Part shown: positions 11,505-61,260 of the stretch, piece after piece | How positions within the stretch are numbered: the first letter of the stretch is position 1 | How the letters are laid out: every line of letters begins with the position of its first letter | From: Candidatus Omnitrophota bacterium | GTDB taxonomy: Bacteria > Omnitrophota > Gorgyraeia > Gygaellales > Profunditerraquicolaceae | Reading direction: 5' to 3' | Assembly (NCBI GenBank): GCA_028717245.1 | Contig: JAQUOD010000001.1 | Span: forward strand, 85,514 to 149,513 | DNA length: 64,000 nt | Notes under the pieces: generated by a model | Told to the model about the DNA's origin: nothing | Database searches by the model: none | Seen by the model: only the letters and a program-made list of their open reading frames with translations | Program-made: the position numbers and the translations under genes

Positions 11505-11541
11505 AATTACGAGTTACTAGTTACGAGCTTACGAGTTACTG
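11505..11541 (-). repeat. tandem heptamer array TTACGAG/TTACTAG x5 in rplN-rplX spacer
   Basis: aattacgag ttactag ttacgag c ttacgag ttactg. Confidence 0.8.
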
Positions 11542-28609: not shown

Positions 28610-28620
28610 ATTGTCTATCA

Positions 28621-28722
28621 GGTTACGTAAGGTTGCCTAAGGTTACGTAAGGTTCCATAAAGCTGCCTTTTTTAAGGTAACCTTATGTAACGTTATGGAA
28701 CCCCATGGAACGTTAGGTAACA
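28621..28722 (-). repeat. inverted arrays of 10-mers GGTTNNNTAA forming a ~45-bp imperfect hairpin in rplL-rpoB spacer
   Basis: ggttacgtaa ggttgcctaa ggttacgtaa ggttccataa ... ggtaacctta tgtaacgtta tggaacccca tggaacgtta ggtaac. Confidence 0.8.
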
Positions 28723-29149: not shown

Positions 29150-29221
29150 GTATCAAAGTATCAGGTATCAAGGTATCAAAGTTTTTTCTTTGACACTTTT
29201 GACACATTGATACTTTGACAC
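29150..29221 (-). repeat. GTATCAA/TTGACAC inverted octamer arrays (hairpin, loop ttttttc) in rplJ-rplL spacer, directly upstream of rplL RBS
   Basis: gtatcaaagtatcaggtatcaaggtatcaaag-ttttttc-tttgacacttttgacacattgatactttgacac. Confidence 0.85.
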
Positions 29222-29225
29222 TATT

Positions 29226-31963: not shown

Positions 31964-32035
31964 AGTGTCAAGGTGTCAAAGTATCAGAGTGTCAAAGTAA
32001 AACTTTGATACCTTGATACATGATACTTTGATACA
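31964..32035 (-). repeat. GTGTCAA/TTGATAC inverted octamer arrays (hairpin) between rpmG and tRNA-Thr
   Basis: gtgtcaaggtgtcaaagtatcagagtgtcaaag-taaaac-tttgataccttgatacatgatactttgatac. Confidence 0.85.
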
Positions 32036-33362: not shown

Positions 33363-34300
33363 CTGTATGCGAGCATGGTTGCCTCAATTAATGATGCGGG
33401 ATTGGCCAACCGGTAGTTTTTTGCGATATCAAAGGCAGTCCCGTGTAAAGGAGATGTTCTGATAAAAGGAATGCCCAATGTCAAATTTACACCGCTAAAG
33501 CCGGCTGATACCTTCAAAGGGATTAATGCCTGGTCGTGATACATGGCAATCATGCAGTCGTATTGTTTTTGCAGTGTTTTTAAGGCTGCTATATCCGCCC
33601 CCTGCGGCCCGGCTATGCTTATGCCTTTTATTTTTTTTCTTAAAAGCGACAGAACAGGTTTAATCACCCTATTTTCTTCCTTTCCTATCAGCCCATTATC
33701 AGAGGCGTGCGGATTAAGCCCGCACAATACGATGCGCGGGTTTCTTGTACGGAAGAGTTTTTTTAAGGATTCATAAGTTAAAATTACGGTTTGAAATATT
33801 GCTTTTTTGCTTAAGCATAGGGGGACGTCTTTTAAAGCAATGTGGCGCGTAACCAGGGTGATTTTTAATTTTTTATTTAAAAGCATCATGGCAAAATTTT
33901 TCGTATTTGTAACAGAGGCCAAATATTCCGTATGCCCGCTGAAATTTTTAAACCCCGCCAAACTCACTGCCTCCTTGGATATAGGGCAGGTAACCAGAGA
34001 ATCTATCTTGTTATGATTAATTAAATCCATTGCCTTATCCAGGTATTCTATGGATGCCTTGCCATATTCAGCCCGCATTTCACCGAATCTAAAATTTTTA
34101 CGTGCTACATTATTTAAATCTATAAATTTTATATCTGACACCTGACACCTGGCACCTGACACCTGATTAAATACCCACCTATCTCCTATGATAACAAAAT
34201 CAGCCAAACCTCTTAATTGAGGTATTGCTTTAGCGATAATAGCAGGGCCTACACCCGCCGGGTCGCCTATGGTAATGCCGATTTTTATTTTATTATGCAT
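33335..34300 (-). CDS. pdxA: 4-hydroxythreonine-4-phosphate dehydrogenase
   Basis: IGITIGDPAGVGP..., HTEY, synteny surA-pdxA-rsmA. Confidence 0.9.
   Translation of the reverse strand: MHNKIKIGITIGDPAGVGPAIIAKAIPQLRGLADFVIIGDRWVFNQVSGARCQVSDIKFIDLNNVARKNFRFGEMRAEYGKASIEYLDKAMDLINHNKIDSLVTCPISKEAVSLAGFKNFSGHTEYLASVTNTKNFAMMLLNKKLKITLVTRHIALKDVPLCLSKKAIFQTVILTYESLKKLFRTRNPRIVLCGLNPHASDNGLIGKEENRVIKPVLSLLRKKIKGISIAGPQGADIAALKTLQKQYDCMIAMYHDQALIPLKVSAGFSGVNLTLGIPFIRTSPLHGTAFDIAKNYRLANPASLIEATMLAYRCTLNQKKD
34135..34165 (-). repeat. in-frame tandem heptamer tract CACCTGA/CACCTGG x4 inside pdxA (encodes periodic QVSGARCQVS)
   Basis: ctgacacctgacacctggcacctgacacctg. Confidence 0.8.
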
Positions 34301-34310
34301 TTATTTGTTT

Positions 34311-34392
34311 CCGTAATCCGTAATTGGTAATTCGTAATTCTTATTTTATTTTAAAAAATTACGATTTACGATTTATGAATTACGATTTACGG
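34311..34392 (-). repeat. inverted heptamer arrays CCGTAAT x4 / ATTTACG x5 (hairpin) in pdxA-surA spacer
   Basis: ccgtaatccgtaattggtaattcgtaatt ... aattacgatttacgatttatgaattacgatttacgg. Confidence 0.85.
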
Positions 34393-34417: not shown

Positions 34418-35365
34418 TTAATCTTGCATAATTTTAATATAAGACTGCTTTTTGAGTTCGTCCAACCACGTTGCTAATGCCTCTTGCATCTTTTGGTCAA
34501 AAAGGAAGGTATAAATATCACCCTGGGCCCCAGAGATACTTTGCTGCCGGGGGGGTATTATATTATCCAGTTTAAAAATATAATATTGTTCTTCTATTTT
34601 GACCGGTGCGGAGATTTCACCTACCTTCAACCTGAATATTTTTTCTTCGATGTCTTTTCTCAACTGCCCATTCCCTGCCCCGCTCATTTTATTTACAGCC
34701 AGGAAATATTTACTGGCGACATCCTGAAATTCCTGCCCATTCCTTAAATCATTAAAGACTTTGCTCGCCAGGTCCTCTTCACCGGTATTTATGGATTCAA
34801 ATTCGCGCTGTTCGGGTAGTTTAAATTTATCGATGTTTTGCTGATAGAAATCGGTGACTTCTGCGGGATTAACCAGAATCTTGCTCTTTATCTTTATTTC
34901 GATAATAGTATACATAAGCAGCTGGTCTCTTATCTTTGATTCTAAGTCTGCCTGCACCAGCCCTTGCTTAGCCAGGGAAGTTTGAAAATCCTTCTCTGAA
35001 TCGTAACGCCTGCGGATATCGTCTATCCTAGCTTTGATCCTGCTCTCGTCTATTCTGATATTGCTTTTTTTGGCTTCCTGTAAAATAATGCGGTCTTCAA
35101 TAAGCTTGTCCATTAAATCCAGCTTTATAGATTGCATTTTACTTTCCAGGCTTCTCCCTTTAAATTCTCCCATTAATTGTACGCGCGTAAAATTAACGAA
35201 GTCGTCTAAGTCTTTCTGGGTGATGACATCGTTATTCACGATAGCGACGATTTTGTCTTCGGCGTGTAAGTTGTAAGCTGTAAGTTGTAAGCTGTAAGCA
35301 ATGGAAAAAAGCAAAAATAATGATATTTTTAAACCCTTTAACCCTTGGTTTTTGATTTTATCCAT
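34418..35365 (-). CDS. surA: SurA-like periplasmic chaperone/peptidyl-prolyl isomerase (signal peptide, short form)
   Basis: 315 aa, N-terminal signal peptide; position upstream of pdxA-rsmA as in E. coli. Confidence 0.6.
   Translation of the reverse strand: MDKIKNQGLKGLKISLFLLFSIAYSLQLTAYNLHAEDKIVAIVNNDVITQKDLDDFVNFTRVQLMGEFKGRSLESKMQSIKLDLMDKLIEDRIILQEAKKSNIRIDESRIKARIDDIRRRYDSEKDFQTSLAKQGLVQADLESKIRDQLLMYTIIEIKIKSKILVNPAEVTDFYQQNIDKFKLPEQREFESINTGEEDLASKVFNDLRNGQEFQDVASKYFLAVNKMSGAGNGQLRKDIEEKIFRLKVGEISAPVKIEEQYYIFKLDNIIPPRQQSISGAQGDIYTFLFDQKMQEALATWLDELKKQSYIKIMQD
35264..35299 (-). repeat. in-frame tandem heptamer tract (C/T)TGTAAG x5 inside surA signal-peptide region (encodes AYSLQLTAYNLH)
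   Basis: gtgtaag ttgtaag ctgtaag ttgtaag ctgtaag c. Confidence 0.8.
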
Positions 35366-40062: not shown

Positions 40063-40125
40063 GTATCAAAGTGTCAGGTATCAGGGTATCAAAGTTTTTT
40101 CTTTGATACTTTGATACTTTGACAC
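40063..40125 (-). repeat. GTATCAA/TTGATAC inverted octamer arrays (hairpin, loop ttttttc), paralogue of the 29150-29221 element; abuts trpE stop and rpsP RBS
   Basis: gtatcaaagtgtcaggtatcagggtatcaaag-ttttttc-tttgatactttgatactttgacac. Confidence 0.85.
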
Positions 40126-41612
40126 TATTTAACAATTGCCTCTATTAATGCCTTTGCCTTGTTTATAGATTCCTGGTATTCATTTTTTGGCACCGAATCA
40201 GCGACGATACCGGCACCTGCCTGAATATATGCCATCCCATCTTTAATAATTACGGTCCGAAGGGTTATGCAGGTATCCATATTATGCGAAAAGCTGAAAT
40301 ACCCTACGCATCCGGCATAGGGCCCGCGCCTTAAATTTTCCAGCTCGTCTATAATTTCCATAGCGCGTATCTTAGGGCTGCCGCTTACTGTCCCGGCGGG
40401 AAAACAGGCCCTTAAAACATCGTAGATATTATATCTCTTATCCAAAATACCCTCAACTTCACTGACTATATGCATTACGTGGGAGTATCTTTCTATGGAC
40501 ATAAACTCACTCACCGCTACCTTGCCTTTTTTACAGACCTTGCCTAAATCATTCCTGCCTAAATCTACCAGCATCAGGTGTTCTGCGCGTTCTTTCTTAT
40601 CTTCAAGAAGCTCCTTTTCTAATTGCTTGTCTTCTTTTTCATTTTTCCCGCGGGGCCGGGTACCGGCAATAGGCCGGGTGCGGGCAATGCCGTCTTCACA
40701 GCGTACCAGTATCTCAGGAGAAGAGCCGACTAAGGTAACTTCCTTTAATTTCAAAAAAAACATATAGGGAGAAGGGTTCAGGCTCCTTAAATCCCTGTAG
40801 ATATCGAAGGGGTCTTTATCTATCTTTATTTCAAAGCGCTGCGACAATACTGTCTGGATGATATCCCCCTTTTTTATATAATCCCTCGCCTTATTTACTA
40901 TTTTACAAAATTCCTTTTCTTTAAAGTTAGAAATTACTTTTATGCTGCGCTTACCAGTATCATTACGCTTTGCTTTCTTGAGCAAGGGTTTCTTCAGTTC
41001 ATTGCATATGGAATCTATTTTTTTCAGCGCCTGATAATAAATCTGCGTTTTTTTAACCCGGGGGATTTTTTTATGCGCCGGCAGGATAATGTTAACAATG
41101 ATCTTTATGGTATGGTTAATATGGTCAAAGACTAGGATGCTATCGGTAAGTATAAAGACGGAATCGGCGATCTTTAGGTCATCCGGATTTCTATCGGGCA
41201 GGTCCTCAAAGAACCTTACCATATCATAAGCCATGAAACCCACGAGCCCTCCGTAAAAGCGCGGTAGTTCTTTAATCCGGGCGGCCTTAAAATCCTGCAT
41301 GATTTTTTTAATTTCATCCAGGGGGTCATTGCGGGTAACAAAATGCCTGGCTGAACTTCTTGCAGGATAAATGACCCGGACATCCCTGCCTTTACTTCTA
41401 AAAATAAGCGCGGGGTTACTCCCTAAGAAAGAATAGCGGGCGATCTTTTCCTGTCCTTCTACGGACTCAAGGAGAAAGGCATAATCGCCTTTTTTTATTT
41501 TTAAGAAGGCAGACACAGGCGTATCTAAATCCGCGCTGATCTCCTGATAAACCGGAATAAGATTATATTTTTTAGATAGTTCCAGAAATTCTTTTAGTGA
41601 TGGATAGTACAT
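40125..41612 (-). CDS. trpE: anthranilate synthase component I
   Basis: TPVSAFLKI, LLESVEGQEKIARYSF motif. Confidence 0.8.
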   Translation of the reverse strand: MYYPSLKEFLELSKKYNLIPVYQEISADLDTPVSAFLKIKKGDYAFLLESVEGQEKIARYSFLGSNPALIFRSKGRDVRVIYPARSSARHFVTRNDPLDEIKKIMQDFKAARIKELPRFYGGLVGFMAYDMVRFFEDLPDRNPDDLKIADSVFILTDSILVFDHINHTIKIIVNIILPAHKKIPRVKKTQIYYQALKKIDSICNELKKPLLKKAKRNDTGKRSIKVISNFKEKEFCKIVNKARDYIKKGDIIQTVLSQRFEIKIDKDPFDIYRDLRSLNPSPYMFFLKLKEVTLVGSSPEILVRCEDGIARTRPIAGTRPRGKNEKEDKQLEKELLEDKKERAEHLMLVDLGRNDLGKVCKKGKVAVSEFMSIERYSHVMHIVSEVEGILDKRYNIYDVLRACFPAGTVSGSPKIRAMEIIDELENLRRGPYAGCVGYFSFSHNMDTCITLRTVIIKDGMAYIQAGAGIVADSVPKNEYQESINKAKALIEAIVK

Positions 41613-41622
41613 ATTGGGCTTT

Positions 41623-41676
41623 GAGCTTTAAGTTGTAAGCCATAAGCTTAAAGCTTAGAGCTTACAGCTTATAGTC
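41623..41676 (-). repeat. heptamer array AGCTTAN (consecutive agcttaa agcttag agcttac agcttat) with inverted partner; overlaps hisI stop codon
   Basis: gagctttaagttgtaagccataagcttaaagcttagagcttacagcttatag. Confidence 0.85.
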
Positions 41677-42765: not shown

Positions 42766-42818
42766 GCTTTAAGTTGTAAGCTATAAGCTGTAAGCTTAAA
42801 GCATAAAGCTTATAGCTA
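42766..42818 (-). repeat. tandem heptamer array GCTNTAA x7; overlaps lipoprotein stop codon, 8 nt upstream of hisF start
   Basis: gctttaa gttgtaa gctataa gctgtaa gcttaaa gcataaa gcttata gcta. Confidence 0.85.
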
Positions 42819-44010: not shown

Positions 44011-44639
44011 AATTCTACAAAATTTTTCAGTATTTTTAAACCGGTTTCCTGGCTTTTCTCAGGATGAAACTGCACGCCGTATATATTCTCCCGCCAAAGA
44101 ACCGGGCTAAAGCTAATCCCGTATTCAGTAGTAGCAGCGATGATATCTTTATCCTTGGGTTGCGGATAATAGGAATGGCAGAAATATACGTAAGCATTAT
44201 CCGGTATATCTTTTAACAGGGGGCATTCCTTTGACACCTTGACACCCTGACACCTTGATACTATTTTCAACTGGTTCCAGCCCATATGCGGGACCTTCAA
44301 ATTGCCTTTAATTTTAAATTTCTTTACCTCGCCTTTTAATATCCCTAATCCTTTTATCCCTTTTGCTTCATCGCTTCTCTCAAAGAGAAGCTGCATCCCT
44401 AAACAGATACCCAGAAATATCTTTTTTGCCTTAATATGCTCCTTTAGCGCCGTCAACAGATCCTGTTTCTTTAATTCTGCTACAGCATCGGCGAATGCCC
44501 CTACCCCCGGCAATACTACCTTATCACAAACCTTGATATCTGCGGGCTTGTTGGTAACTATTGTCTTTGCGCCCATAGACTCTAAGGCCTTTTGCACGCT
44601 ATGAATATTTCCCATGCCGTAGTCAATTATGGCAATCAT
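44004..44639 (-). CDS. hisH: imidazole glycerol phosphate synthase glutaminase subunit
   Basis: MIAIIDYGMGNIHSV..., GICLGMQ, HSY. Confidence 0.9.
   Translation of the reverse strand: MIAIIDYGMGNIHSVQKALESMGAKTIVTNKPADIKVCDKVVLPGVGAFADAVAELKKQDLLTALKEHIKAKKIFLGICLGMQLLFERSDEAKGIKGLGILKGEVKKFKIKGNLKVPHMGWNQLKIVSRCQGVKVSKECPLLKDIPDNAYVYFCHSYYPQPKDKDIIAATTEYGISFSPVLWRENIYGVQFHPEKSQETGLKILKNFVELC
44229..44262 (-). repeat. in-frame octamer tract TTGACACC x3 inside hisH (encodes SRCQGVKVSKE; about 9-aa insertion relative to HisH homologs)
   Basis: ctttgacaccttgacaccctgacaccttgatactatttt. Confidence 0.8.
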
Positions 44640-45258: not shown

Positions 45259-46482
45259 TCAAAACCTTATCTTCACCGAATCCAAATGTTTATCCAAGCC
45301 TTCAATACCGGCCATCTTTTCCAGGGGCTCTTTAATTTTCTCGAGGGCCTTACGCGAGTAACCGATGATGTGGCTGCTCTTCATAAAATCCAGCACCGAG
45401 AGCCCGGAAAAGAACCTGGCAGTGCCGCCTGTAGGTAAAACGTGGCTCGGGCCTGCTACATAGTCGCCTACTGCAGTCGGGCTATGCGGGCCTAAAAATA
45501 TAGCCCCGGCATTCCTGATTCCTTTTAATAATCTTTGTGGATTCTTGACCAGAATCTCCAGGTGTTCGGGTGCAATCTTGTTGGCAATATCAACTGCCTG
45601 TTCCAGGTTTTTTGTCAGAATAATAAAACCCGGGTTATCCGCGCATTGAGATTTTATTTCTCTCGCCAGGCTCTTAGAATTGGTAATCAATACCGCTAAA
45701 CCTCCGGCGTGTTCAGTCTGTGCCCTAAGGTCAGCGACAATAAATTTAGGGTCGCTGAAACGGTTGGCAATAATCACCAGCTCCGTAGGCCCGGCGATCA
45801 TATCAATATCCACTGACCCGAATACCTGCCTTTTCGCTTCGCTTACATAAATATTGCCTGGCCCGACTATTTTGTCTACCCGCGGAATAGTCTTTGTCCC
45901 ATACGCTAAAGCAGCAATGCCTTGCGCGCCTCCTACGCGATAAATTTCATCTACCTTAAGCAGGTCTGCTACTACAAGTATGTGGGGATTTATAAGCCCT
46001 TGTTTATCCGGGGGGCTAGCCAGGGTTATCTTCTTTACCCCGGCCATTTTTGCGGGAAGCACTGTCATATAAACAGTAGAAACCAGTGGCGCTGTGCCCG
46101 CGGGGATATATATGCCTACCCTGTCTAAAGCAGTATAATTCTCGCCTAAAATAGCGCCATCCCCGGCTTTCATCCTCCAGGATTTCTTTATGGTCCTGCG
46201 GTAAAAACGGTTGATATTTTCAATGATAACCTTGAGGCTGGAAACAAAATTAGGGCTGATATTCTGATATGCGCCGCTGATTTCAATTTCAGAAACTTTT
46301 AGCTGTCTGGGTAGCATTTTAACGCCGTCAAATTTACGCGTATACTTTAAGAGCGCTTCATCACCGAGAAGGCGCACATCATCAATAATCTGCCTGACTT
46401 TTTCTTCAACTCGCCTGGATTTAATAAACCCGCGGTTATAAATCTTCTCTAACTTTTTGCTGCTAAAGCGTATGATTTTCAT
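45259..46482 (-). CDS. hisD: histidinol dehydrogenase
   Basis: 407 aa. Confidence 0.9.
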   Translation of the reverse strand: MKIIRFSSKKLEKIYNRGFIKSRRVEEKVRQIIDDVRLLGDEALLKYTRKFDGVKMLPRQLKVSEIEISGAYQNISPNFVSSLKVIIENINRFYRRTIKKSWRMKAGDGAILGENYTALDRVGIYIPAGTAPLVSTVYMTVLPAKMAGVKKITLASPPDKQGLINPHILVVADLLKVDEIYRVGGAQGIAALAYGTKTIPRVDKIVGPGNIYVSEAKRQVFGSVDIDMIAGPTELVIIANRFSDPKFIVADLRAQTEHAGGLAVLITNSKSLAREIKSQCADNPGFIILTKNLEQAVDIANKIAPEHLEILVKNPQRLLKGIRNAGAIFLGPHSPTAVGDYVAGPSHVLPTGGTARFFSGLSVLDFMKSSHIIGYSRKALEKIKEPLEKMAGIEGLDKHLDSVKIRF

Positions 46483-49097
46483 TTTAGTTCCCTGATAATC
46501 TCTTTAAGTTTCTTGAATGCCTGCGGAAAATTCTCCGGTTTATTTCCCCCTGCCTGGGCAAAATCCTTCCTGCCTCCGCCGCTACCGCCGATTTCCGGGG
46601 CGATTGCTTTTATTATCTTAGCGCTATCAATATCTAAAATTTGCGTATTTAAATTTGTACCCGTAACCAACAGGGCCCCTCCAACGGAAGTAGTTGTCCC
46701 TAAGGCAACGATAACGCTTTTTTCCTTCGCTTTGATTAAATCCACGGCCTTTCTTAAGGCGTCCATATCCTGGCCTTCAATAAAACGGGCGATAACATTA
46801 ATACCGTTAATAATTTCTCCCTCTTTAATATAATTATCTATTGAGGCTCTAAGCATATCCGTCTTGCGGTAACTTAGCTTTTTTTCCAGTTCTTTTATCT
46901 GAAATAGCTTCTTCTCTAATTCCTGGGTTATCTTTTGGCTAGGGACATTTAAAAGAGAAGAAATATCAGCCAGGATATTCTCTTCTTCCTTAAGCGCCTT
47001 ATAGGCACAATCTCCTGTAAGCGCTTCTATCCTTCTTATCCCGCTGGCTATCGACCCCTCGTTAACTATCTTAAAGAGCCCGATTTGGCCGGTGCATTCA
47101 AGGTGTGTTCCGCCGCAGAGTTCTTTAGAGAAATCTCCGATTGCTACCATACGCACCTTTTCTGCGTATTTCTCCGTAAAGAATGCCAATGCCCCTTGTC
47201 TTTTAGCCTCTGCGAGGGTCAGCGTCTTTGCCTTCAAGCACGTATTATTTACTATGTAGTTATTGACTAATCCTTCTATTCTATCCAACTGTTCCCTAGT
47301 CACATCCTTAAAATGCGTAAAGTCAAAACGTAATCTATCTTCGGCTACTAATGAACCTTGCTGTTGCACATGCGCTCCCAAAATTACGCGTAATGCTGCC
47401 TGCAATAGGTGTGTGGCAGTATGATTTCTGGCTATGGATAGCCTGCGTTTAATATCCACACAGGACATTAACTCATCTGTGGTTCTAAAACTTCCGGTTT
47501 TTACCCTTCCTTTATGCACAATAACATTATCAAATTTACGGGTACCGGTTATCTGAAAGACATTCTTCCCTTTTATCAATTCACCCGTATCGCCTACCTG
47601 GCCGCCGGATTCAGGGTAAAGAACGGTTTTATCTAAAATTATCCGGGCCTCTTCGCCCGCGCTTATTTTTTTTACCGGAGTATTATCTTTAATAATCTTG
47701 ATAACCTTTGCCTTTGTCTCGTATTTGGAGTAACCCAGAAAACTAGTCTTAGCGCCTGCTAAATGCAATTCTTTAATATCAAAGACATCGCCTTTCATCC
47801 GACTCTGTAATTTAGAACGGTTTTTCTGCTCTCCTAATTCCTTATCAAATGCCTCCTGCGAGAAATTTATGCCGGCTTTCTCCAGCCAACCCCTGGTTAA
47901 CTCTAAAGGTATCCCGTAGGTATCGTACAACTGAAAGGCAAGCCTGCCGGCCCTTTGCGCGTCCTGCTTATTACTAAAACCCTTAAATTTTTCTTCAAAC
48001 AAAACGCTGCTAGAATCTAAAGTAGAAATAAAATTATTCTCTTCAGCCAGAATAATCTGGGAGATATTTTCTTTACGTTTATCCAACTCTGGATATGGCA
48101 ACTTCATAATATCGGATAAAAGAGGGGTTAATTTATAAAGAAAAGGTTTAGCTATCCCTAACGCCCTTAAATGCAGCATGCTTTTACGGATTATTTTTCT
48201 TACTACATACCCGCGGCCTTCATTAGAAGGCAATACGCCATCATAAATAGCAAAAACAATGGCACGTATATGGTCACTAACAGCATAAATAAATTCCTTA
48301 TCTGACACTTTGACACTTTGACACTTTGACACTATCTCTTTCACTATGGGTTGGAATAAATCCGTTTCAAAATTATTCGGCACCCCCTGCATAACCGCTG
48401 CCAATCTTTCCAGCCCCATACCCGTGTCAATATTCTTTTTGGGTAAAGGTTCTAATTTTCCGTCTGCTTTGCGGTTAAATTGTGTAAACACTAAATTCCA
48501 TATTTCCGGGAACCTGCCGCAACTGCAAGCCGGGCCGCAGCCAGGCTTCCCGCAACCTGCGCCCTGGTCAAAGAATATCTCAGAACATGGCCCGCATGGC
48601 CCATTTGGGCCGTTAGCTTTGGCTTCTGATGGCCAGAAATTTTCTTTATCGCCTAATTTTACGATTTTATTTACCGGAACCTTTATTTTATCTTTCCATA
48701 TGTTATACGATTCATCATCGTCTTTATATACAGAAACCCAGAGTTTATCTTCTTTAATCTTAAGCTCTTCGGTCAGGAACTCCCACGCCCAGGTAATTGC
48801 CTCTTCCTTAAAATAGTCCCCGAAAGAAAAATTTCCCAGCATCTCAAAAAAGGTATGGTGAGACGGGGTCTTGCCTACCTTATCTAAATCATCGGTGCGC
48901 AGGCAGCGCTGGCTGCTGGCAGCGCGGCTAAAACCGGTTAAATGCCCCAGGAATTGCCTCTTGAATTGGTTCATTCCGGCAGGAGTAAATAATACGGTAG
49001 GGTCGTCCTTGGGGATAAGCGAATCGCTTTCTACGATTTTATGCTTTTTAGCTTTAAAAAAGATGGGGAATTTTTCTCTTAATAAATCCGCTTTCAT
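46479..49097 (-). CDS. alaS: alanine--tRNA ligase
   Basis: start MKADLLREKF at 49097 overlapping recX stop (ATGA..TAA); ORF-track start 49154 is an extension. Confidence 0.9.
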   Translation of the reverse strand: MKADLLREKFPIFFKAKKHKIVESDSLIPKDDPTVLFTPAGMNQFKRQFLGHLTGFSRAASSQRCLRTDDLDKVGKTPSHHTFFEMLGNFSFGDYFKEEAITWAWEFLTEELKIKEDKLWVSVYKDDDESYNIWKDKIKVPVNKIVKLGDKENFWPSEAKANGPNGPCGPCSEIFFDQGAGCGKPGCGPACSCGRFPEIWNLVFTQFNRKADGKLEPLPKKNIDTGMGLERLAAVMQGVPNNFETDLFQPIVKEIVSKCQSVKVSDKEFIYAVSDHIRAIVFAIYDGVLPSNEGRGYVVRKIIRKSMLHLRALGIAKPFLYKLTPLLSDIMKLPYPELDKRKENISQIILAEENNFISTLDSSSVLFEEKFKGFSNKQDAQRAGRLAFQLYDTYGIPLELTRGWLEKAGINFSQEAFDKELGEQKNRSKLQSRMKGDVFDIKELHLAGAKTSFLGYSKYETKAKVIKIIKDNTPVKKISAGEEARIILDKTVLYPESGGQVGDTGELIKGKNVFQITGTRKFDNVIVHKGRVKTGSFRTTDELMSCVDIKRRLSIARNHTATHLLQAALRVILGAHVQQQGSLVAEDRLRFDFTHFKDVTREQLDRIEGLVNNYIVNNTCLKAKTLTLAEAKRQGALAFFTEKYAEKVRMVAIGDFSKELCGGTHLECTGQIGLFKIVNEGSIASGIRRIEALTGDCAYKALKEEENILADISSLLNVPSQKITQELEKKLFQIKELEKKLSYRKTDMLRASIDNYIKEGEIINGINVIARFIEGQDMDALRKAVDLIKAKEKSVIVALGTTTSVGGALLVTGTNLNTQILDIDSAKIIKAIAPEIGGSGGGRKDFAQAGGNKPENFPQAFKKLKEIIRELK
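48302..48333 (-). repeat. in-frame octamer tract TTGACACT x4 inside alaS (encodes SKCQSVKVSDKE)
   Basis: ctgacactttgacactttgacactttgacact. Confidence 0.8.
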
Positions 49098-49558
49098 TAT
49101 TGATTCAATGCCTCTAAAATTATACCGGGAGAAAAACCGCGGCGTAAAAGGCATGCATAGATACGCCTTTTTATTTTTTGGGGATCGCTGCCTTTTGCTT
49201 TATTGAGTTTATCTTGGATAATCCGCGTAACTATCTCCTTTTCAGGATAGTTTTTTTTGATTTCGTTTATCTGGTTCTCAATGATTTCTTTATCAACGCC
49301 TTTTACCTGTAATTCCTGCCTTAGCCTCCTTATCCCTAACGGCCTTTTTATGCGCGATTCAATCCAGGCCCTGGCAAAATGATTATCGTCAATAAAGGCC
49401 TTGTCTTTTAAAAAAGAAAGGGTTTCTTCTATAATCCCGGGGGTGAATTTTTTCTTTTTCAGCCGTTGGCGAATCTCCTGCTCGCTACGCGGCCTGAATT
49501 TAAGCAGCAAAAAGGCGTAATTTTTTGCCTTTTCCAATAAACCTTTATCCTTATCCAC
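49097..49558 (-). CDS. recX: recombination regulator RecX
   Basis: 153 aa. Confidence 0.8.
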   Translation of the reverse strand: MDKDKGLLEKAKNYAFLLLKFRPRSEQEIRQRLKKKKFTPGIIEETLSFLKDKAFIDDNHFARAWIESRIKRPLGIRRLRQELQVKGVDKEIIENQINEIKKNYPEKEIVTRIIQDKLNKAKGSDPQKIKRRIYACLLRRGFSPGIILEALNQ

Positions 49559-52439: not shown

Positions 52440-53606
52440 ATGGAAGAGATAAATAAAATCAAACAAGAAATCGAGCGCACCAAAACCGAACTGGCTATCC
52501 TTTATGAAATATCCAATGCCATGCGTACCACTCTTAAGCTGGATGAAATACTCTACATTATCCTGACCGGGGTCACCGCGCATATAGGATTGGGGTTTAA
52601 CCGCGCCATCCTCTTTTTAGTCAACGAAAAAAATAGTGTTATCGAAGGTAAAATGGGTATTGGCCCGGGAGACGGCGAAGAAGCTAATCAAATCTGGACC
52701 AGGGTAGAACGCGAGCAGATGGATTTAGACGACCTGATTAATGCTTATAAGGTTTCTAAGGATATCCTGGAATCCAGCTTCAACCAGCAGATACGCGCCC
52801 TGAAGATGCCCTTAAAAGAACAAAATGGCGGATTACTGGCTTTGGGGGTACTGGAGGGCATGCCTTTGCATCTAACCGCTGAAACCATACAAAACTATAG
52901 TAAGGATCCTATTATACGGATATTAAAGGCTGATGAGTTGGTAGTAATCCCCCTGAAAGCAAAGGATAAAGTAAACGGAATAATTTTAGCAGATAATTTT
53001 ATTACTAAAAAGCCTATTACCAAAGATGATATACGCATGCTGATTATGCTGGCTAACCAGGCGGGTCTAGCCGTTGAGAATTCACAACTTTACGAAAAAG
53101 CCGTTATCCGCGCCCATACTGACTTGCTTACCGAACTTTATAATCATGGGCATTTCCAGTACCTTTTATCTACAGAGATAGAGAAGGCAAAGGCGAGTTC
53201 CCTTCCTTTAAGCCTGATTATGCTGGATATCGATAATTTTAAGGTCTATAACGATGCGCTCGGGCATCAGGCCGGGGATAAAATCTTAAAGGCGCTGGCG
53301 TTGCTGCTAAAGAACCAATCCCGCAAAATGGATTATGTCTGCCGTTACGGCGGGGAGGAATTTACCATTATCCTGCCGCAGACGGAAAAAAAAGAGGCGT
53401 TCTTAATCGCTGAACGCCTGAGGATGGATATTGAAAAATACACCTTTATCAATGAAGAAATCCTGCCTAATAAAAAATTAACCGTGAGTATGGGTTTGGG
53501 TTCTTACCCGGAAAACGGGGCTACTGCCTCTGATTTAATCACCAGTTCTGACCAAGCCCTCTATCAGGCCAAGCATAAAGGAAAAAATAATACCTGCTGT
53601 TGTTAA
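52440..53606 (+). CDS. diguanylate cyclase with N-terminal GAF-like sensor domain
   Basis: RYGGEEF motif, LIMLDIDNFKVYND. Confidence 0.85.
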   Translation: MEEINKIKQEIERTKTELAILYEISNAMRTTLKLDEILYIILTGVTAHIGLGFNRAILFLVNEKNSVIEGKMGIGPGDGEEANQIWTRVEREQMDLDDLINAYKVSKDILESSFNQQIRALKMPLKEQNGGLLALGVLEGMPLHLTAETIQNYSKDPIIRILKADELVVIPLKAKDKVNGIILADNFITKKPITKDDIRMLIMLANQAGLAVENSQLYEKAVIRAHTDLLTELYNHGHFQYLLSTEIEKAKASSLPLSLIMLDIDNFKVYNDALGHQAGDKILKALALLLKNQSRKMDYVCRYGGEEFTIILPQTEKKEAFLIAERLRMDIEKYTFINEEILPNKKLTVSMGLGSYPENGATASDLITSSDQALYQAKHKGKNNTCCC

Positions 53607-56600
53607 GCCCCGGCAGGTTCAACTACGGCTACATCCGCCTCTTTATCTTTTACGGCTTTACTCCCCCCGAACTTCACGGAAACAATCTTAGAAACCCCGG
53701 ATTCCTCCATAGTGATCCCGTACATCACGTCCGCGTTGGCAATGGTTTTCTTGTTGTGGGTAATCACGATAAACTGGGAGGTCCTAATAAACTCCTGCAG
53801 CATGCGGCCGAACCTGTCCACATTGGCTTCATCCAAGGCAGCGTCTATCTCATCCAATACGCAGAAAGGCGAAGGCTTAACTTTAAATATGGCAAAAATA
53901 AGCGCTATCGCAGACATGGATTTTTCTCCGCCGGAGAGTAAAAGCACATTCTGTAATTTTTTGCCCGGAGGCCGGCAGATAATTTCAATCCCCGATTCCA
54001 GCGGGTCCTGTTCATCAACTAAAAAAACCTGGGCATCGCCGCCGTTAAAGAGCAGCCGGAAATAATTCTTAAACTCCAGGCGCACCTTTTCAAAGGTCTC
54101 TAAAAACATTTTTTTAGTGGTGCGGTTAATCTTTAAGATCGCCTCATGCACTGATTCGCGCGCCGTTACCAGATCATTCTGCTGCTGGGTCAGGAAATCA
54201 TAGCGTTTCTTTAATTCGTCATATTCTTCTATGGCTACCAGGTTAACCGTGCCATAGGAATCTAACCTGTCTTTTAATTTTTCTATTTCCTGGGAAAGCG
54301 TATCCTTATCTATTGCCTCCTGGAGGCTATTACAGGGCATATCCAAATCCGCCTTATAGGACTGCAGGATCCTCTCTTTAAGGCTAGTGATTTTAAAATC
54401 TACGTCTTTATTTTGCATCTGTAGCTCGTATAATTTATTTTTTATGTTGTCCAATTCTTTCCTGTCTGCCTCTACCTTGCCTACGGCATCGCTTACACCT
54501 TCATTAATCCCGCGGTATTTATCTTCTGTTTCTTTGAGGAGATTATTTTGCTCCTGAATATCCAACTGCGCCTGCTCAATCCTGCCCTCTGAATTTTTAA
54601 TCTCCAAGGCCAGTTGTTGTTGTTTATCCGCATTTTCTTTGACTTGCTCCTCAAAATTCAGGAGGCTCTCCTTATCCTGTTGACAGGTATCTTCCAAAAT
54701 TTTAAGCGTAGCTCCTTCAGAATCTATGCGCTTACTTAAACCCTCCAGCTCTGTTTTAGCCTGGGTAATCGCCACTAACGTCTGCTCTTTAAGGCTATGA
54801 TTTGCATTAATGTTATTCTGTTCTTTAAGGATCAGCTCTTCATGTCCCTTTTGCTCTTTATCCAGCTCTGCTGCCTGGGTTTGTAGGCCCACTAGCGTAT
54901 TCTCAAGACTGGATAAATCCTGCCCCACTTCAGATAATTCTAAAACTATTACCTCCTCTTCATCCCTTATTTTATTAAACTGCTCCAGGACTGCCTGATG
55001 AGATGCTTTTTTATTGGCTAAGGTTATTTCCTGGTTACGTAAGGCCTCCTGAAGATGAAAGATAGCCTGATTTAATTCTGCGATACGCGCCTGGCTTGCT
55101 GTCTTAGCGCCCTCCATGGCCCTTAGGCTGTCTTCAAGTATAGATAATTTCTGGTTAATTTTCTGCGCATCCAAATCAATGGGTTTAGCTTCTCCGTATA
55201 ATTTAAATTTTGCGCCTTCGATAAGTCGGCCATCCAACGTCGAGCCGGATGGATCTTTTATTTTTATTACTAAAGCGGTTATTTTATCCGATGGCTGCCT
55301 GTCTAAATAAATCTGCGCATTCATGGATTCACTGATATCTTCGTATTTTGTCTTTAGCTTATCCAGGAATTCTTTGTGGGACAACAAACCCGACTTTTCT
55401 CTTTCTAAATTAGAGATGTCTGTATTTAAGTTATTCAGGCCCTGGGTTTCCCGCTGTAATTTATCCTTAGCATCGGATATCTTCGAACTTAAATCCTGGA
55501 AGTCTTTTTCCAGCTCTTTTAGTTCTTGGTTGAGATTATCCAGATTATCCTGAATCTTCGCCTTTTCTTCATTGACCTTTATCTTTTCGATTTCCAGCCT
55601 CTTTTTACGCGCTGAATAAATGTGCTGCTTGCCGGTTAAATCAGCAATCTCATTTTTAACCTGCGTAAATTTAGTAACCAGCCCAAGAATGCTTCTATTG
55701 GTTTTAGCAATAGCCTCCAGGGAATTTTTAGTGGATAAGGTTATATTGCTCAGCCGCCCTTCTTTATCCTGCAGGAAGAGCCTTTTTTCTTCAATGGTTT
55801 GGTTTATCGCATTGCGTTCGTTCTTTAAATTATTTAATTTTTCTTCATCCAGCGAGAGCCTCTTCTTGGTCTGCTCAATCTGCCCCTCTAGGTGCTTCTG
55901 GCTTACGTCTAATTCCTTTATCTTTTCTTGGTTAAAATTGACGCGCTCTTTATTGGCTAAAATAGAGTTCTCCAGGGTCATGATTTGATTTTTTATGGCC
56001 ATGATCGCCTCTTCCATGGCTTTTAGTTCACCGCGTTGGTCGCTATTCTTTGATTCATGCCCCTGGATGATGCTTAAAAGCCGGTCTTCTGCTACCTGCA
56101 ATTCCTTCAGCTGGTTTATGATATTATCTTTTTCTAAGGCCAATTGGTTCTTATCCCATAGGGCCAGGCTGATTTCTTTTTGTTTTAATTCCTCAAAGGC
56201 TTCTTTATACCGGCGCGCCTTATTGGCCTGGCGCTCTAAAGAGCCGATCTGGCGTTTTACTTCCGTAATGATATCATTGACCCTTAAAAGGTTCTGTTGG
56301 GTTTCTTCTAATTTCCTCATTGCCTCTCTTTTTTGAACCTTATATTTAGTAATCCCTGCGGCCTCATCAAAAACCAGGCGCCTGTCTTCCGGCCGGGAAC
56401 TTAAGACTAAATCTATCTTTCCCTGCTCTACCAGAGAATAACTTTCAGCCCCAATGCCGGTACCCATCAGCAAATCCAGGATATCCTTAAGCCGCACCTG
56501 GGTTTTATTTAACAGGTATTCGCTCTCGCCTGACCTGAAGATCCTTCTAGTAATGGTCACCTCATCATGATCAATACTGAAATATTTCTGGTCATTATCA

Positions 56601-56851
56601 AAGGTGAGGCTGACTTCTGCCATGCTTAAGGGCTCTTTAATATCCGTGCCGTTAAAAATCACATCCTGCATATCCGAGCCGCGTAGCGACTTTACTGACT
56701 GCTCGCCCAGAACCCAGCGTATAGAATCAAAGATATTGGATTTCCCGCAGCCGTTTGGGCCGACTACCGCAGTAACCCCGGGTTCAAAATGTAAAACGGT
56801 TTTATTCAAAAATGACTTGAAACCCACTATCTCCAGTTTTTTGAAATACAT
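53603..56851 (-). CDS. smc: chromosome segregation protein SMC
   Basis: MYFKKLEIVGFKSF...GPNGCGKSN, long coiled coils, 1082 aa. Confidence 0.9.
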   Translation of the reverse strand: MYFKKLEIVGFKSFLNKTVLHFEPGVTAVVGPNGCGKSNIFDSIRWVLGEQSVKSLRGSDMQDVIFNGTDIKEPLSMAEVSLTFDNDQKYFSIDHDEVTITRRIFRSGESEYLLNKTQVRLKDILDLLMGTGIGAESYSLVEQGKIDLVLSSRPEDRRLVFDEAAGITKYKVQKREAMRKLEETQQNLLRVNDIITEVKRQIGSLERQANKARRYKEAFEELKQKEISLALWDKNQLALEKDNIINQLKELQVAEDRLLSIIQGHESKNSDQRGELKAMEEAIMAIKNQIMTLENSILANKERVNFNQEKIKELDVSQKHLEGQIEQTKKRLSLDEEKLNNLKNERNAINQTIEEKRLFLQDKEGRLSNITLSTKNSLEAIAKTNRSILGLVTKFTQVKNEIADLTGKQHIYSARKKRLEIEKIKVNEEKAKIQDNLDNLNQELKELEKDFQDLSSKISDAKDKLQRETQGLNNLNTDISNLEREKSGLLSHKEFLDKLKTKYEDISESMNAQIYLDRQPSDKITALVIKIKDPSGSTLDGRLIEGAKFKLYGEAKPIDLDAQKINQKLSILEDSLRAMEGAKTASQARIAELNQAIFHLQEALRNQEITLANKKASHQAVLEQFNKIRDEEEVIVLELSEVGQDLSSLENTLVGLQTQAAELDKEQKGHEELILKEQNNINANHSLKEQTLVAITQAKTELEGLSKRIDSEGATLKILEDTCQQDKESLLNFEEQVKENADKQQQLALEIKNSEGRIEQAQLDIQEQNNLLKETEDKYRGINEGVSDAVGKVEADRKELDNIKNKLYELQMQNKDVDFKITSLKERILQSYKADLDMPCNSLQEAIDKDTLSQEIEKLKDRLDSYGTVNLVAIEEYDELKKRYDFLTQQQNDLVTARESVHEAILKINRTTKKMFLETFEKVRLEFKNYFRLLFNGGDAQVFLVDEQDPLESGIEIICRPPGKKLQNVLLLSGGEKSMSAIALIFAIFKVKPSPFCVLDEIDAALDEANVDRFGRMLQEFIRTSQFIVITHNKKTIANADVMYGITMEESGVSKIVSVKFGGSKAVKDKEADVAVVEPAGA

Positions 56852-61224: not shown

Positions 61225-61260
61225 CGGCTTATAGCTTACAACTTATGGCTTACGGCTATT
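61225..61260 (-). repeat. tandem heptamer array (G/A)GCTTA(T/C) x5 overlapping glgC stop codon
   Basis: cggcttat agcttac aacttat ggcttac ggctatt. Confidence 0.8.

What the first reader, a model, noticed from the sequence alone, without database searches (positions are those of the whole stretch)
48302..48333. Octamer tract (TTGACACT x4) translated inside alaS as SKCQSVKVSDKE
The same 8-mer family occurs in the intergenic hairpins and in hisH. Because the 8-nt unit is tandemly repeated, the peptide is quasi-periodic (CQSVKVS). The peptides coded by the hisH tract (SRCQGVKVSKE) and the pdxA tract (ARCQVS) are related, which argues for a common DNA-level origin rather than protein-level selection.
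Basis: seen in the sequence. Interest (0 to 1): 0.6.

Follow-up and report, generated by a model that had tools for sequence, protein, structure and literature searches.

The report
Repeat element translated inside alanyl-tRNA synthetase
A 32-base run of four 8-base repeats sits in frame in a variable surface loop of the essential alaS gene; it is one copy of a genome-wide family of small repeat elements, and related bacteria carry such repeats at this same loop again and again.

Summary
The tract is real. Window 48302-48333 is CTGACACT plus three TTGACACT. On the alaS sense (minus) strand it reads AGTGTCAA x3 + AGTGTCAG and encodes VSKCQSVKVS.

- The tract fills a hypervariable connection between two helices of AlaRS and uses mostly non-preferred codons.
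- A distant ortholog (67% amino-acid identity) has the identical DNA at the same codons, although its flanks are saturated at synonymous sites. The closest ortholog (81%) lacks it.
- 23 of 120 Omnitrophota AlaS proteins carry a peptide at this one loop that only a 7- or 8-nt periodic DNA would encode. At least 14 different units are involved, and DNA confirmed arrays in all 10 array-bearing genes I could read (two further genes without a periodic peptide had none).
- The hisH tract is a 24-nt insertion relative to orthologs.

In the window the same GTRTCA-core units also form roughly 70-nt hairpins with (A/G)TAG at one end, placed right after stop codons.

My reading: alaS carries an in-frame "tag plus first arm" copy of a REP-like repeat family whose stems are tandem 7-8-mers, and the peptide is a passenger. 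How the family spreads is inferred, not shown. This is a new variant of a known kind.

The parts
48302..48333 (-). The alaS octamer tract. On the sense strand it reads AGTGTCAA x3 + AGTGTCAG and encodes VSKCQSVKVS. It is a solo first arm with no complementary arm.
   Evidence: TRF: period 8, 3.9 copies, 100% matches. There is no unusual RNA structure in context (z = +0.27).
48332..48335 (-). ATAG at the 5' boundary of the tract on the sense strand. It is formed by the conserved Ile codon ATA plus the G of the next codon, and it overlaps the first two bases of the tract.
   Evidence: ATAG lies at the sense-strand 5' boundary of 7 of 13 array loci in the window, against a background of 3.4%.
46479..49097 (-). 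The alaS coding sequence (alanine--tRNA ligase, 872 aa from M20). The ORF extends upstream to 49154.
   Evidence: 100% identity to an NCBI 'Candidatus Omnitrophica bacterium' alanine--tRNA ligase. (E = 4e-119 to Aquifex AlaRS, PDB 1RIQ).
44230..44261 (-). The hisH tract. On the sense strand it reads ATAG|TATCAAGG TGTCAGGG TGTCAAGG TGTCAAAG. It includes a 24-nt (8-aa, IVSRCQGV) insertion relative to orthologs.
   Evidence: Pfam GATase.
34135..34166 (-). The pdxA tract, a heptamer GTGTCAG x4.6 encoding QVSGARCQVSD. The PdxA of Omnitrophica WOR_2 (L072, 49% identity) carries an AGTGTCAA octamer array at the same site.
35265..35299 (-). A heptamer array (sense CTTACAR x5) that encodes the end of the signal-peptide-like N-terminus (AYSLQLTAYNLHA) of a SurA-like protein.
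   Evidence: Pfam SurA_N, Rotamase.
40065..40126 (-). Hairpin element between trpE and the next downstream gene (rpsP in the syntenic relatives): TAG-(TGTCAAAG/TATCAAAG)x3-A6-(YYTGAYA)x4. The TAG is the trpE stop codon. Orthologous hairpins of the same unit family exist in L001 and L004.
29150..29222 (-). Hairpin element of the same unit family between the ORFs 29226-29753 and 28730-29122 (rplJ and rplL by position and size only). It starts 5 nt after the TAA stop, with ATAG at its 5' edge and an A6 loop. MFE is -37.0 kcal/mol on the sense strand.
31964..32034 (+). Hairpin element of the same unit family in the opposite orientation: GTAG-(TGTCAAGG...)x4-TAAAA-(CTTTGATA...)x4. It lies 11 nt from a tRNA gene. 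MFE is -42.2 kcal/mol.
28620..28721 (-). Hairpin between the ORFs 25205-28609 and 28730-29122 (rpoB and rplL by position and size only), made of inverted 10-mer arrays of the TTACG unit family.
   Evidence: MFE -32.8 and -38.1 kcal/mol on the two strands.
34312..34391 (-). Hairpin between surA-like and pdxA, made of inverted heptamer arrays (TAAATCG / CGTAATT, the TTACG family).
42766..42817 (-). Array or hairpin of the TAAGC unit family between the PG-binding gene and hisF. It starts at that gene's TAG stop codon (..GTT AAA TAG).
41644..41671 (-). Short hairpin of the TAAGC family at the end of hisI. The hisI stop codon TAA lies inside a repeat unit.
61225..61257 (-). Solo array of the TAAGC family that starts at the TAG stop codon of a GlgC-like gene (..ATT AAA TAG).
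11507..11539 (-). Solo heptamer array (sense TAACTCG-like, TTACG family) between rplN and rplX.

Best explanation
The alaS tract is an in-frame, intragenic copy of a dispersed family of small DNA repeat elements. It is not a protein motif.

In full form the element is an (A/G)TAG end tag, then about four tandem 7-8-nt units (here GTRTCA plus 1-2 purines, about 32 nt), then an A-rich loop, then the complementary array. This forms a hairpin of about 70 nt. The hairpins sit directly after stop codons, and the tag often supplies the TAG stop itself. alaS carries only the tag plus the first arm.

Shown:
- The tract has a DNA-level identity that is independent of the protein.
- It sits in a permissive connection between two helices at the junction of the aminoacylation domain and the helical domain of AlaRS.
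- Only the AGTGTCAA strand is free of stop codons, and that strand is the sense strand in every coding copy.
- Related arrays recur at this same loop in many lineages.
- The sister tract in hisH is a 24-nt insertion.

Inferred:
- New copies arise by a non-reciprocal DNA process, either template switching or gene conversion from other genomic copies, or a REP-type single-strand transposase. This process starts at short homology: the conserved AlaS codons K-E-I-V-S read AAA GAA ATA GTG TCA, which already spells tag plus first core.
- The same process keeps the array close to the family consensus.
- The encoded peptide VSKCQSVKVS is a tolerated passenger.
For: Family membership:
- The same unit family occurs at 6 loci in the window. 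The exact octamer is found 8 times against 0.7 expected. There are 18 short-period arrays against 0.2 in shuffles.
- The three intergenic copies form hairpins with arms of about 32 nt and share one polarity: tag, GTRTCA arm, A-rich loop, TTGAYAC arm.
- ATAG lies at the sense-strand 5' boundary in 7 of 13 window loci (background 3.4%). TAG lies there in 13 of 20 arrays in related loci (background 14%).
- TAG is the upstream gene's stop codon at 40125, 42816 and 61256, and at trpE in L001 and L004.

DNA level rather than protein level:
- A 67%-identical ortholog has the identical 31-35 nt, while only 46% of conserved residues share a codon elsewhere.
- Within that clade only G<->A changes occur, and they alter the peptide.
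- Nine of ten tract codons are non-preferred.

Recurrence at one site:
- The closest ortholog (81% identity) lacks the tract, and a neighbour-joining tree places the window far from the other array-bearing clade.
- 23 of 24 hits for peptides compatible with periodic DNA, across 120 full-length AlaS proteins, fall in this one loop, with 14 or more different units.
- DNA confirmed arrays in window, L001, L004, L005, L006, L007, L080, L081, L083 and L084. Seven of these ten start directly after ATAG, an eighth (L081) within a few bases, and L007 and L080 start after ATAA and ATTG.

Insertion events:
- hisH gained 24 nt at a site that reads AAAGTCAA in orthologs.
- hisF gained 8-20 aa of array or hairpin at one site in L001, L081, L083 and L084.
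- pdxA has arrays at the same site in two lineages.

Permissive location:
- The AF2 model puts residues 256-265 at the end of one helix plus the connection to the next. They align to the 'EVSGKKYGEKFETD' stretch of Aquifex AlaRS.

Literature parallel:
- GTAG-tagged REPs lie just downstream of ORFs, supply TAG stop codons, show G-T pairs in their stems and occur in frame inside genes, including tRNA synthetase genes (PMC3733652).
Against: - No mobility event was caught directly. I saw no target-site duplication, and no transposase (RAYT or IS200-like) is encoded in the 64-kb window. The rest of the genome could not be read.
- In alaS the 'ATAG' is made by conserved Ile/Val codons, so its presence there may be coincidence rather than targeting.
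- The ATAG/TAG motif was chosen after looking at the data, so its P-values are inflated.
- The loci I fetched were chosen because their peptides looked periodic, so '10 of 12 with arrays' is a biased sample. The unbiased figure is 23 of 120.
- The neighbour-joining tree is crude. An ancient tract that decayed in most lineages is not strictly excluded.
- Known GTAG REPs have 6-13-bp stems and no tandem-unit architecture.
- Strand asymmetry from G-U pairing in the hairpins is inconsistent: two favour the element's top strand and one the bottom strand.
Confidence: 0.6

Rival explanations
1. The tract is a locally born microsatellite. Replication slippage duplicated and expanded an 8-nt seed in a loop that tolerates anything. 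Similar tracts elsewhere arose independently through the same mutational bias. This is the 'long simple sequence repeat' view, in which units of about 7 nt are favoured by polymerase slippage.
For: - Unit lengths of 7-8 nt are the class reported as most abundant among long simple sequence repeats in prokaryotes (Mrazek 2007, as summarised in PMC4679880).
- Many different units occupy the AlaS loop in different lineages.
- The arrays are short (3-5 copies).
- The loop is hypervariable.
Against: - The window's arrays fall into only three unit families, and six loci share the GTRTCA core.
- The same 24-mer occurs in 72 stretches of species-representative genomes, against about 0.004 expected for a given 24-mer.
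- Copy number peaks at 4 (36 arrays) rather than at the search floor of 3 (22 arrays), which is not the monotonic decline slippage predicts.
- Arrays share a TAG end tag and one polarity.
- The hisH units (GGTGTCAA) are not duplicates of the local seed AAAGTCAA.
- The tract is identical across 33% protein divergence.
Confidence: 0.2
2. The tract is a functional cis-element, selected as nucleic acid. It would be a binding site for a factor that recognises GTRTCA repeated every 7-8 nt on RNA or single-stranded DNA, or a stretch of slow codons at a domain boundary that paces translation and co-translational folding.
For: - The DNA is conserved beyond what the peptide needs.
- Coding copies tend to lie at domain junctions. 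In AlaRS the tract is at the junction of the catalytic and helical domains. In HisRS it lies between the catalytic and anticodon-binding domains. In TrpE it lies between the two Pfam domains.
- The codons are mostly non-preferred.
- The trpE-rpsP hairpin is kept at the orthologous position in three lineages.
- The same octamer is found in about ten phyla.
Against: - The closest AlaS ortholog has no array.
- Other lineages have unrelated units at the same site, so no single sequence is required.
- The alaS mRNA around the tract has no unusual structure (z = +0.27).
- No candidate binding factor is known.
Confidence: 0.12
3. The peptide SKCQSVKVS is itself selected, for example as a surface contact or a Cys-based site in AlaRS, and the DNA periodicity is a side effect.
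For: The same peptide occurs in two separate AlaS lineages. Related peptides occur in hisH and pdxA.
Against: - Codon identity is far above expectation. The chance of 11 identical codons is about 0.46^11, roughly 2e-4, even granting identical residues.
- Cys changes to Tyr and Val to Ile inside the sister clade.
- Most of the 120 orthologs have unrelated sequences and different lengths here.
- The same peptide appears in unrelated enzymes: HisRS, IspG, AroA, QueA, IspD and MnmE.
Confidence: 0.04

Closest known systems
GTAG-tagged REPs (repetitive extragenic palindromes; Di Nocera et al. 2013, PMC3733652), thought to be mobilised by RAYT transposases
   Same: - A small palindromic repeat family with an unpaired (G/A)TAG tag at one end.
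- Placed just downstream of ORFs, between genes transcribed in the same direction.
- The tag often supplies the upstream gene's TAG stop codon.
- G-T pairs occur in the stems.
- Several families coexist in one genome.
- Some copies lie in frame inside genes, including tRNA synthetase genes, sometimes at about the same site in related species (compared).
   Different: - Known stems are 6-13 bp with 2-3-nt loops. Here the arms are about 32 nt, built of four tandem 7-8-nt units, with A5-7 loops.
- The tag here is mostly ATAG.
- Solo arms with no palindrome, such as the alaS tract, are common.
- No RAYT gene could be looked for beyond the window.
Rickettsia palindromic elements (RPEs)
   Same: Selfish palindromic repeats inserted in frame into unrelated housekeeping genes, adding a passenger peptide at positions compatible with protein folding (review PMC10969869).
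   Different: RPEs are about 100-150 bp, encode a conserved peptide of 30 aa or more, are restricted to Rickettsia, and are not tandem arrays. The alaS tract is 32 nt and replaces loop sequence rather than lengthening it.
TAACTGA heptamer direct repeats of Beggiatoaceae, Cyanobacteria and Bacteroidetes (MacGregor 2015, PMC4679880), and cyanobacterial STRR heptamers
   Same: - Short arrays (2-6 copies) of a specific 7-nt unit, mostly intergenic and often overlapping an upstream stop codon.
- One orientation has stops in all frames, so coding copies exist only in the other orientation.
- A patchy distribution across several phyla with no known vector (compared).
   Different: - The unit sequences differ.
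- The TAACTGA arrays lie mainly just upstream of start codons and rarely form inverted pairs.
- Coding copies there lie mostly at protein termini or in hypothetical proteins, not at recurrent internal loops of essential enzymes.
Contingency loci (phase-variable simple sequence repeats)
   Same: A tandem repeat whose unit length is not a multiple of three, lying inside a coding sequence.
   Different: - The host gene is essential and single-copy.
- Copy number is the same (4) across deeply diverged lineages.
- A change of one unit would be lethal, not a switch.
- No population variation was seen: L001 and L002 come from two samples and encode the same protein.

Membership tests
Long simple sequence repeat (LSSR; Mrazek 2007 sense) | A tandem repeat of a 1-11-nt unit that is longer than chance predicts for the genome. 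| tested here: met
   TRF gives period 8, 3.9 copies, 100% matches. There are 18 arrays of period 7-10 with at least 3 copies, against 0.2 in 30 dinucleotide shuffles.
GTAG-tagged REP | A short imperfect palindrome that can form a stem-loop. | tested here: not met
   The alaS tract has no complementary arm. MFE is about 0 to -3 kcal/mol, and the mRNA context has z = +0.27. Its intergenic relatives at 29150, 31964 and 40065 are palindromic (MFE -35 to -42 kcal/mol), but their arms are about 32 nt, against 6-13 bp in described families.
GTAG-tagged REP | An unpaired GTAG-type tetranucleotide at one end. | tested here: inconclusive
   ATAG lies at the 5' boundary of the alaS and hisH tracts and of 7 of 13 window loci (P about 8e-8, motif chosen post hoc). 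GTAG is found at 31964 and at trpE in L001 and L004. In alaS the ATAG comes from conserved codons.
GTAG-tagged REP | High copy number and an associated RAYT (Y1 HUH transposase) gene in the genome. | not testable with these tools
   Only 64 kb of the 374-kb contig is available. It holds 13 array loci and no transposase among the ORFs scanned.
Rickettsia palindromic element | An in-frame palindromic insert of about 100-150 bp that encodes a conserved peptide, in Rickettsia. | tested here: not met
   The tract is 32 nt, is not palindromic, causes no length increase in AlaS, and the organism is an Omnitrophota MAG.
Cyanobacterial STRR / TAACTGA heptamer arrays | The specific unit sequences (CCCCAGT, TTGGTCA, CAACAGT; TAACTGA). 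| tested here: not met
   The units here are AGTGTCAA or GTRTCAR, TTACG-type and TAAGC-type.
Contingency locus (phase variation) | Copy-number variation that switches the reading frame of a dispensable gene, usually one for a surface structure. | tested here: not met
   The host gene is alaS. Window, L001, L004 and L005 all have four units. Variation within a population was not testable.
CRISPR array | Repeats of 24-40 nt separated by unique spacers of similar length. | tested here: not met
   The units are 8 nt and lie head to tail with no spacers.

The most novel reading that the evidence does not exclude
A class of micro-element that has not been described: a TAG tag plus about 32 nt made of four tandem 7-8-nt units, either solo or as a hairpin with a complementary arm. 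It would be actively copied by a site-directed, homology-primed or HUH-type single-strand mechanism and shared across many phyla (Omnitrophota, Nitrospirota, Nitrospinota, Planctomycetota, Bacteroidota and others). It would repeatedly colonise the same surface loops and interdomain linkers of essential enzymes (AlaRS, HisF, PdxA, IspD, TrpE, HisRS). If so, these loops would be defined insertion hotspots, and a steady share of 'hypervariable loop' sequence in these phyla would be repeat-derived.
Probability: 0.3. Interest if true: 0.8.

Novelty: new variant of a known kind. Interest (0 to 1): 0.62.

Why it matters
This shows that a stretch of an essential aminoacyl-tRNA synthetase is written by a genome-wide DNA repeat process rather than by selection on the protein.

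The same loop has been overwritten many times in Omnitrophota. About one ortholog in five carries an array there, with at least 14 different units. This gives a natural map of positions in housekeeping enzymes that tolerate arbitrary 8-20-residue inserts. It also warns that such peptides should not be read as functional motifs or used as phylogenetic characters.

The tagged, tandem-unit hairpins that sit on stop codons extend the REP concept to poorly studied phyla. They also pose a concrete question: what copies a 32-nt array to sites that begin with ATAG, and why does the same octamer occur in about ten phyla?

No paper in the searchable library contains the array or its peptide.

Tried and rejected
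- **G-U strand asymmetry.** I expected the intergenic hairpins to be more stable on the transcribed strand, which would indicate an RNA-level function. The result is inconsistent: 29150 favours the sense strand, and 40065 favours the antisense strand. 31964 favours the plus strand, which is its own top strand. I dropped this as evidence.
- **A distant complementary arm or local structure in alaS mRNA.** None was found (z = +0.27). An inverted-repeat call failed on a strand-format error and was not repeated.
- **Antisense promoter from tandem TTGACA (-35-like) boxes.** Reading the sequence by eye, I found no acceptable -10 element at 17-nt spacing. This was not pursued.
- **Known RNA families.** Rfam at gathering thresholds finds only two tRNAs in the window.
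- **Phage origin.** There is no (AGTGTCAA)x3 in IMG/VR contigs.
- **Wider census of AlaS loops.** A 58-aa fragment in the search for homologous proteins gave only 2 candidates. A 39-aa fragment against 1.84 billion representative proteins gave 0 hits. Both searches were wasted, and the queries were too short.
- **DNA for P0071** (predicted ACGAATT heptamer). The sample has no sequence file.
- **AF2 model of AlaS.** It is poor in the catalytic domain (pTM 0.39). I used only the local secondary structure around the tract.
- **Recent transfer of an alaS segment between lineages.** Rejected, because sequence identity stops exactly at the tract edges.
Full report
**1. The observation**

Window 48302-48333 (+) reads CTGACACT TTGACACT TTGACACT TTGACACT. 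Tandem Repeats Finder gives 48303-48333, period 8, 3.9 copies, 100% matches, score 62. Exact TTGACACT occurs 8 times in the window against 0.70 expected, and no shuffle out of 100 reaches 8.

The tract lies in the 891-codon ORF 46479-49154 on the minus strand. This ORF is alanine--tRNA ligase. It is 100% identical to an 872-aa protein of a 'Candidatus Omnitrophica bacterium' MAG, so the true start is probably M20 at 49097. Its N-terminal half matches Aquifex AlaRS (PDB 1RIQ) at E = 4e-119.

On the sense strand the tract is AGTGTCAA x3 + AGTGTCAG and is translated as VSKCQSVKVS, within ...KEIVSKCQSVKVSDKEFIYAVSDHIRA. One unit has a variant base. 'KE' lies outside the tract. The peptide period is 8 residues.

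**2. The tract belongs to a family**

The window holds 18 arrays of period 7-10 with at least 3 copies, at 13 loci. Dinucleotide shuffles give 0.2 on average. The units fall into three families:
- GTRTCA plus 1-2 purines: 29150, 31964, 34135, 40065, 44230 and 48302.
- TTACG-type: 11507, 28620 and 34312.
- TAAGC-type: 35265, 41644, 42766 and 61225.

Nine loci are intergenic. Four are coding: alaS, hisH, pdxA and the signal-peptide-like end of a SurA-like protein.

The three intergenic GTRTCA loci are hairpins with arms of about 32 nt (MFE -35 to -42 kcal/mol). They share one polarity: (A/G)TAG, then four GTRTCARR units, then an A5-7 loop, then four complementary units.

The sense-strand 5' boundary carries ATAG in 7 of 13 loci, against a 3.4% background. 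At 40125, 42816 and 61256 that TAG is the stop codon of the upstream gene, and all three genes end ..TT AAA TAG. The alaS tract (GAG ATA G|TG TCA...) and the hisH tract (AAA ATA G|TA TCA...) consist of this tag plus the first arm only. The alaS mRNA around the tract folds no better than shuffled sequence (z = +0.27).

The complementary strand (TTGACACT)n has TGA in all three frames. The AGTGTCAA strand has no stop in any frame, and it is the sense strand in every coding copy.

**3. Orthologs**

In 111 Omnitrophota AlaS orthologs, the segment between the conserved KEI and YAVADHIR is the most variable part of the protein. It spans about 8-24 residues between KEI and the Tyr of that motif and has no conserved sequence.
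- The closest relative (P0002, 81% identity) reads YSNAQNAITTSKEP and has no repeat in its DNA.
- A distant clade (P0032, P0059, P0047-51; 67% identity) has VSKCQSVKVSK, VSKCQSIKVST or VSKYQSIKVST. Its DNA is AGTGTCAA x4.1 (L001), or the same array with one or two inner units changed to AGTATCAA (L005, L004). The frame and codons are the same as in the window.

Between window and L001, nucleotide identity outside the tract is 66%. Only 46% of conserved degenerate residues share a codon. The longest identical run in the gene is the 35 nt at the tract, and the next longest is 23 nt. A rough neighbour-joining tree with the loop masked puts the window next to P0002 and far from that clade.

The G-to-A changes alter the peptide (C to Y, V to I) but keep the DNA within the unit family. 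The constraint is therefore on the nucleic acid, not on the protein. Nine of the ten tract codons are used below the level that equal use of synonymous codons would give.

**4. The loop is a hotspot**

I enumerated every peptide 9-mer that a perfectly periodic 7- or 8-nt DNA can encode. I then scanned all 120 AlaS proteins over their full length, allowing one mismatch. 24 proteins hit, and 23 of the 24 hits lie in this one loop. They imply at least 14 different units.

DNA confirmed the predictions wherever I could fetch it:
- AGAAATC x4.7 (L006)
- TCAGCTG x4.7 (L007)
- GTGTCAK x4 (L080)
- TTAAGGG x3.6 (L081)
- GYCTCAA x4.1 (L083)
- GTTACGG x4.3 (L084)

All are about 25-33 nt long. Counting the window and the L001, L004 and L005 genes as well, seven of the ten arrays start directly after 'ATA G'. 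L081's starts a few bases later. L007 and L080 start after ATAA and ATTG. L082 and L003 have no array.

Many orthologs begin the loop with I-V-S, and many carry another V-S eight codons later. So ATAGTGTCA...GTGTCA, which is tag plus core with a second core 24 nt on, may pre-exist. This could explain how an array can replace the loop without changing its length. That is inference.

**5. Insertions elsewhere**

- **hisH.** The window has NQLK-IVSRCQGV-KVSKECP where four orthologs have NQL(H/R/K)KV(N/Q)SQCP. This is a 24-nt insertion next to a site that reads AAAGTCAA or AAAGTTCAAAG in the uninserted genes.
- **hisF.** The loop after IDAK(K) carries a 20-aa hairpin-type double array in L001 and L084, a 13-aa element in L081 and a CTCCAGN x4.7 array in L083. 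The window, L004 and L006 have nothing there.
- **pdxA.** The window's heptamer array and an octamer array in Omnitrophica WOR_2 (49% identity) lie at the same site.
- **trpE-rpsP spacer.** It holds a hairpin of the same family in window, L001 and L004, starting at the trpE TAG. L006 and L081 have unrelated hairpins there.

**6. Beyond this lineage**

Exact (AGTGTCAA)x3 occurs in 72 stretches of GTDB species-representative genomes, where a given 24-mer is expected about 0.004 times. By record title these come from about ten phyla, including Nitrospirota, Nitrospinota, Planctomycetota, Bacteroidota, Verrucomicrobiota/Lentisphaerae, Omnitrophota and Cyanobacteriota.

Copy number peaks at 4: 22 arrays have 3 copies, 36 have 4, 10 have 5, and 10 have 6 or more. 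A third of the arrays lie in stop-free ORFs of at least 200 codons, always with AGTGTCAA as the sense strand. Eight of these ORFs were scanned against Pfam, and all are real enzymes: HisRS (array between the catalytic and anticodon-binding domains), TrpE (between its two domains), IspG, PdxA, AroA, QueA, IspD and MnmE.

None occurs in IMG/VR viral contigs. No paper in the library contains the array or its peptide.

**7. Where it sits in the protein**

The AF2 model is weak overall (pTM 0.39). Locally it places residues 256-265 at the end of helix 249-258 and in the short connection to helix 267-285. The segment aligns with 'EVSGKKYGEKFETD' of Aquifex AlaRS, just before the conserved DHLRAI helix.

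**8. Interpretation**

The best-supported reading (confidence about 0.6) is this. alaS carries an in-frame 'tag plus first arm' copy of a dispersed REP-like family whose stems are tandem 7-8-mers, and the peptide is a passenger in a permissive linker.

Shown: family membership, DNA-level rather than protein-level identity, recurrence at one site, insertion events in sister genes, and the orientation rule.

Inferred: the copying mechanism. This could be template switching or gene conversion primed by short homology such as ATAGTGTCA, or a RAYT-like single-strand transposase. Also inferred is that the same process homogenises the array.

Rivals:
- Independent local slippage (0.2). It is weakened by the shared units, tag and polarity, the copy-number mode at 4, and the cross-lineage identity.
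- A selected nucleic-acid element or a translational pause site at domain junctions (0.12). This is compatible with the conservation and the junction positions. It is weakened by the tract's absence from the closest relative and by unrelated units elsewhere.
- Selection on the peptide (0.04).

**9. Comparison with what is known**

The closest described kind is the GTAG-tagged REP super-family. These have an unpaired tag at one end, lie just downstream of ORFs and supply TAG stop codons. They show G-T stem pairs, and in-frame intragenic copies occur, including in tRNA synthetase genes (PMC3733652). The differences are arms of about 32 nt made of tandem units instead of 6-13-bp stems, A-rich loops, frequent solo arms, and a tag that is mostly ATAG.

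Rickettsia RPEs are the classic case of in-frame repeat insertion in housekeeping genes, but they are about 150-bp palindromes (PMC10969869). The TAACTGA heptamer arrays share the short arrays, the overlap with stop codons, the one-orientation coding rule and a patchy multi-phylum spread (PMC4679880).

The tract itself fails the palindrome criterion for REP membership. It also fails the criteria for RPEs, STRR, contingency loci and CRISPR. It meets the definition of a long simple sequence repeat.

**10. Verdict**

The element is a new variant of a known kind. Interest is 0.62. In-frame repeat passengers are already known. The new points are the repeated overwriting of one AlaRS loop by many different units, the tagged tandem-unit hairpins on stop codons, and the same octamer array in about ten phyla. 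None of these appear to have been described, and each can be tested directly.

Noticed in passing
L001 16967-17028; L081 hisF (16688-17482); L083 16803-16835; L084 16726-16790: The hisF loop after IDAK(K) is a second insertion hotspot. It carries 20-aa hairpin-type double arrays in L001 and L084, a 13-aa element with an internal palindrome in L081, and a CTCCAGN x4.7 array in L083. The window, L004 and L006 have nothing there.
   Followed up: partly
window 40125-40127, 42816-42818, 61256-61258: Three unrelated genes (trpE, a PG-binding protein and a GlgC-like gene) all end with ..TT AAA TAG exactly where an array begins. This suggests that the element, not the gene, supplies the last codons and the stop.
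   Followed up: partly
L023, L027, L030, L037, L042, L048, L068 (Nitrospiraceae UBA665 and relatives): AGTGTCAA x4-5 is followed directly by AGA and the complementary CTCTGAYA array. The whole hairpin lies inside long stop-free ORFs and encodes SVKVSKCQSVKDSDTLTLGNSD. L030 has two copies in one 1480-codon ORF.
   Followed up: no
L010, L017, L064 (also L008, L075, L043, L060) - Bacteroidales MAGs: The same octamer array sits within longer conserved flanks (..CCTTCTATGGRTTGAATA.. [array] ACTCATTTT..). It often occurs as inverted pairs 100-200 nt apart (L029, L033, L039). It therefore looks like part of a larger MITE-like repeat in that phylum.
   Followed up: no
window 35265-35299 (-): A heptamer array (CTTACAR x5) encodes the hydrophobic end of the signal-peptide-like N-terminus of the SurA-like protein (..FSIAYSLQLTAYNLHAED..). 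This is a fourth coding array in the window.
   Followed up: partly
AlaS orthologs P0042, P0046, P0060, P0072, P0074, P0082, P0085, P0096: These have longer inserts in the same AlaS loop that share a recurrent 'GTVP(E/Q)(K/R)G' motif. This may be a different small element, possibly a GGGACnGTCCC palindrome. I did not examine the DNA.
   Followed up: no
window 31622-31692 and 32045-32117 (-): There are two tRNA genes. The reverse-oriented hairpin element at 31964-32034 ends 11 nt from the second one.
   Followed up: no
L006 257-5185: The SMC homolog of this relative is 1642 aa and carries precomputed Pfam hits for an intein (Intein_splicing, LAGLIDADG_3). The window's SMC (53603-56851) is 1082 aa and has none.
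   Followed up: no
window 49097-49154: The alaS ORF extends 19 codons upstream of the probable start (M20) and overlaps the end of recX (49097-49558). The database protein starts at M20.
   Followed up: partly
L045 5402-5473, L067 1220-1283 (Clostridium intestinale); L025 5998-6109 (Phycisphaerales): These are much longer AGTGTCAA arrays (8-14 copies). In C. intestinale two loci share similar flanks. They fall outside the usual 4-copy mode.
   Followed up: no
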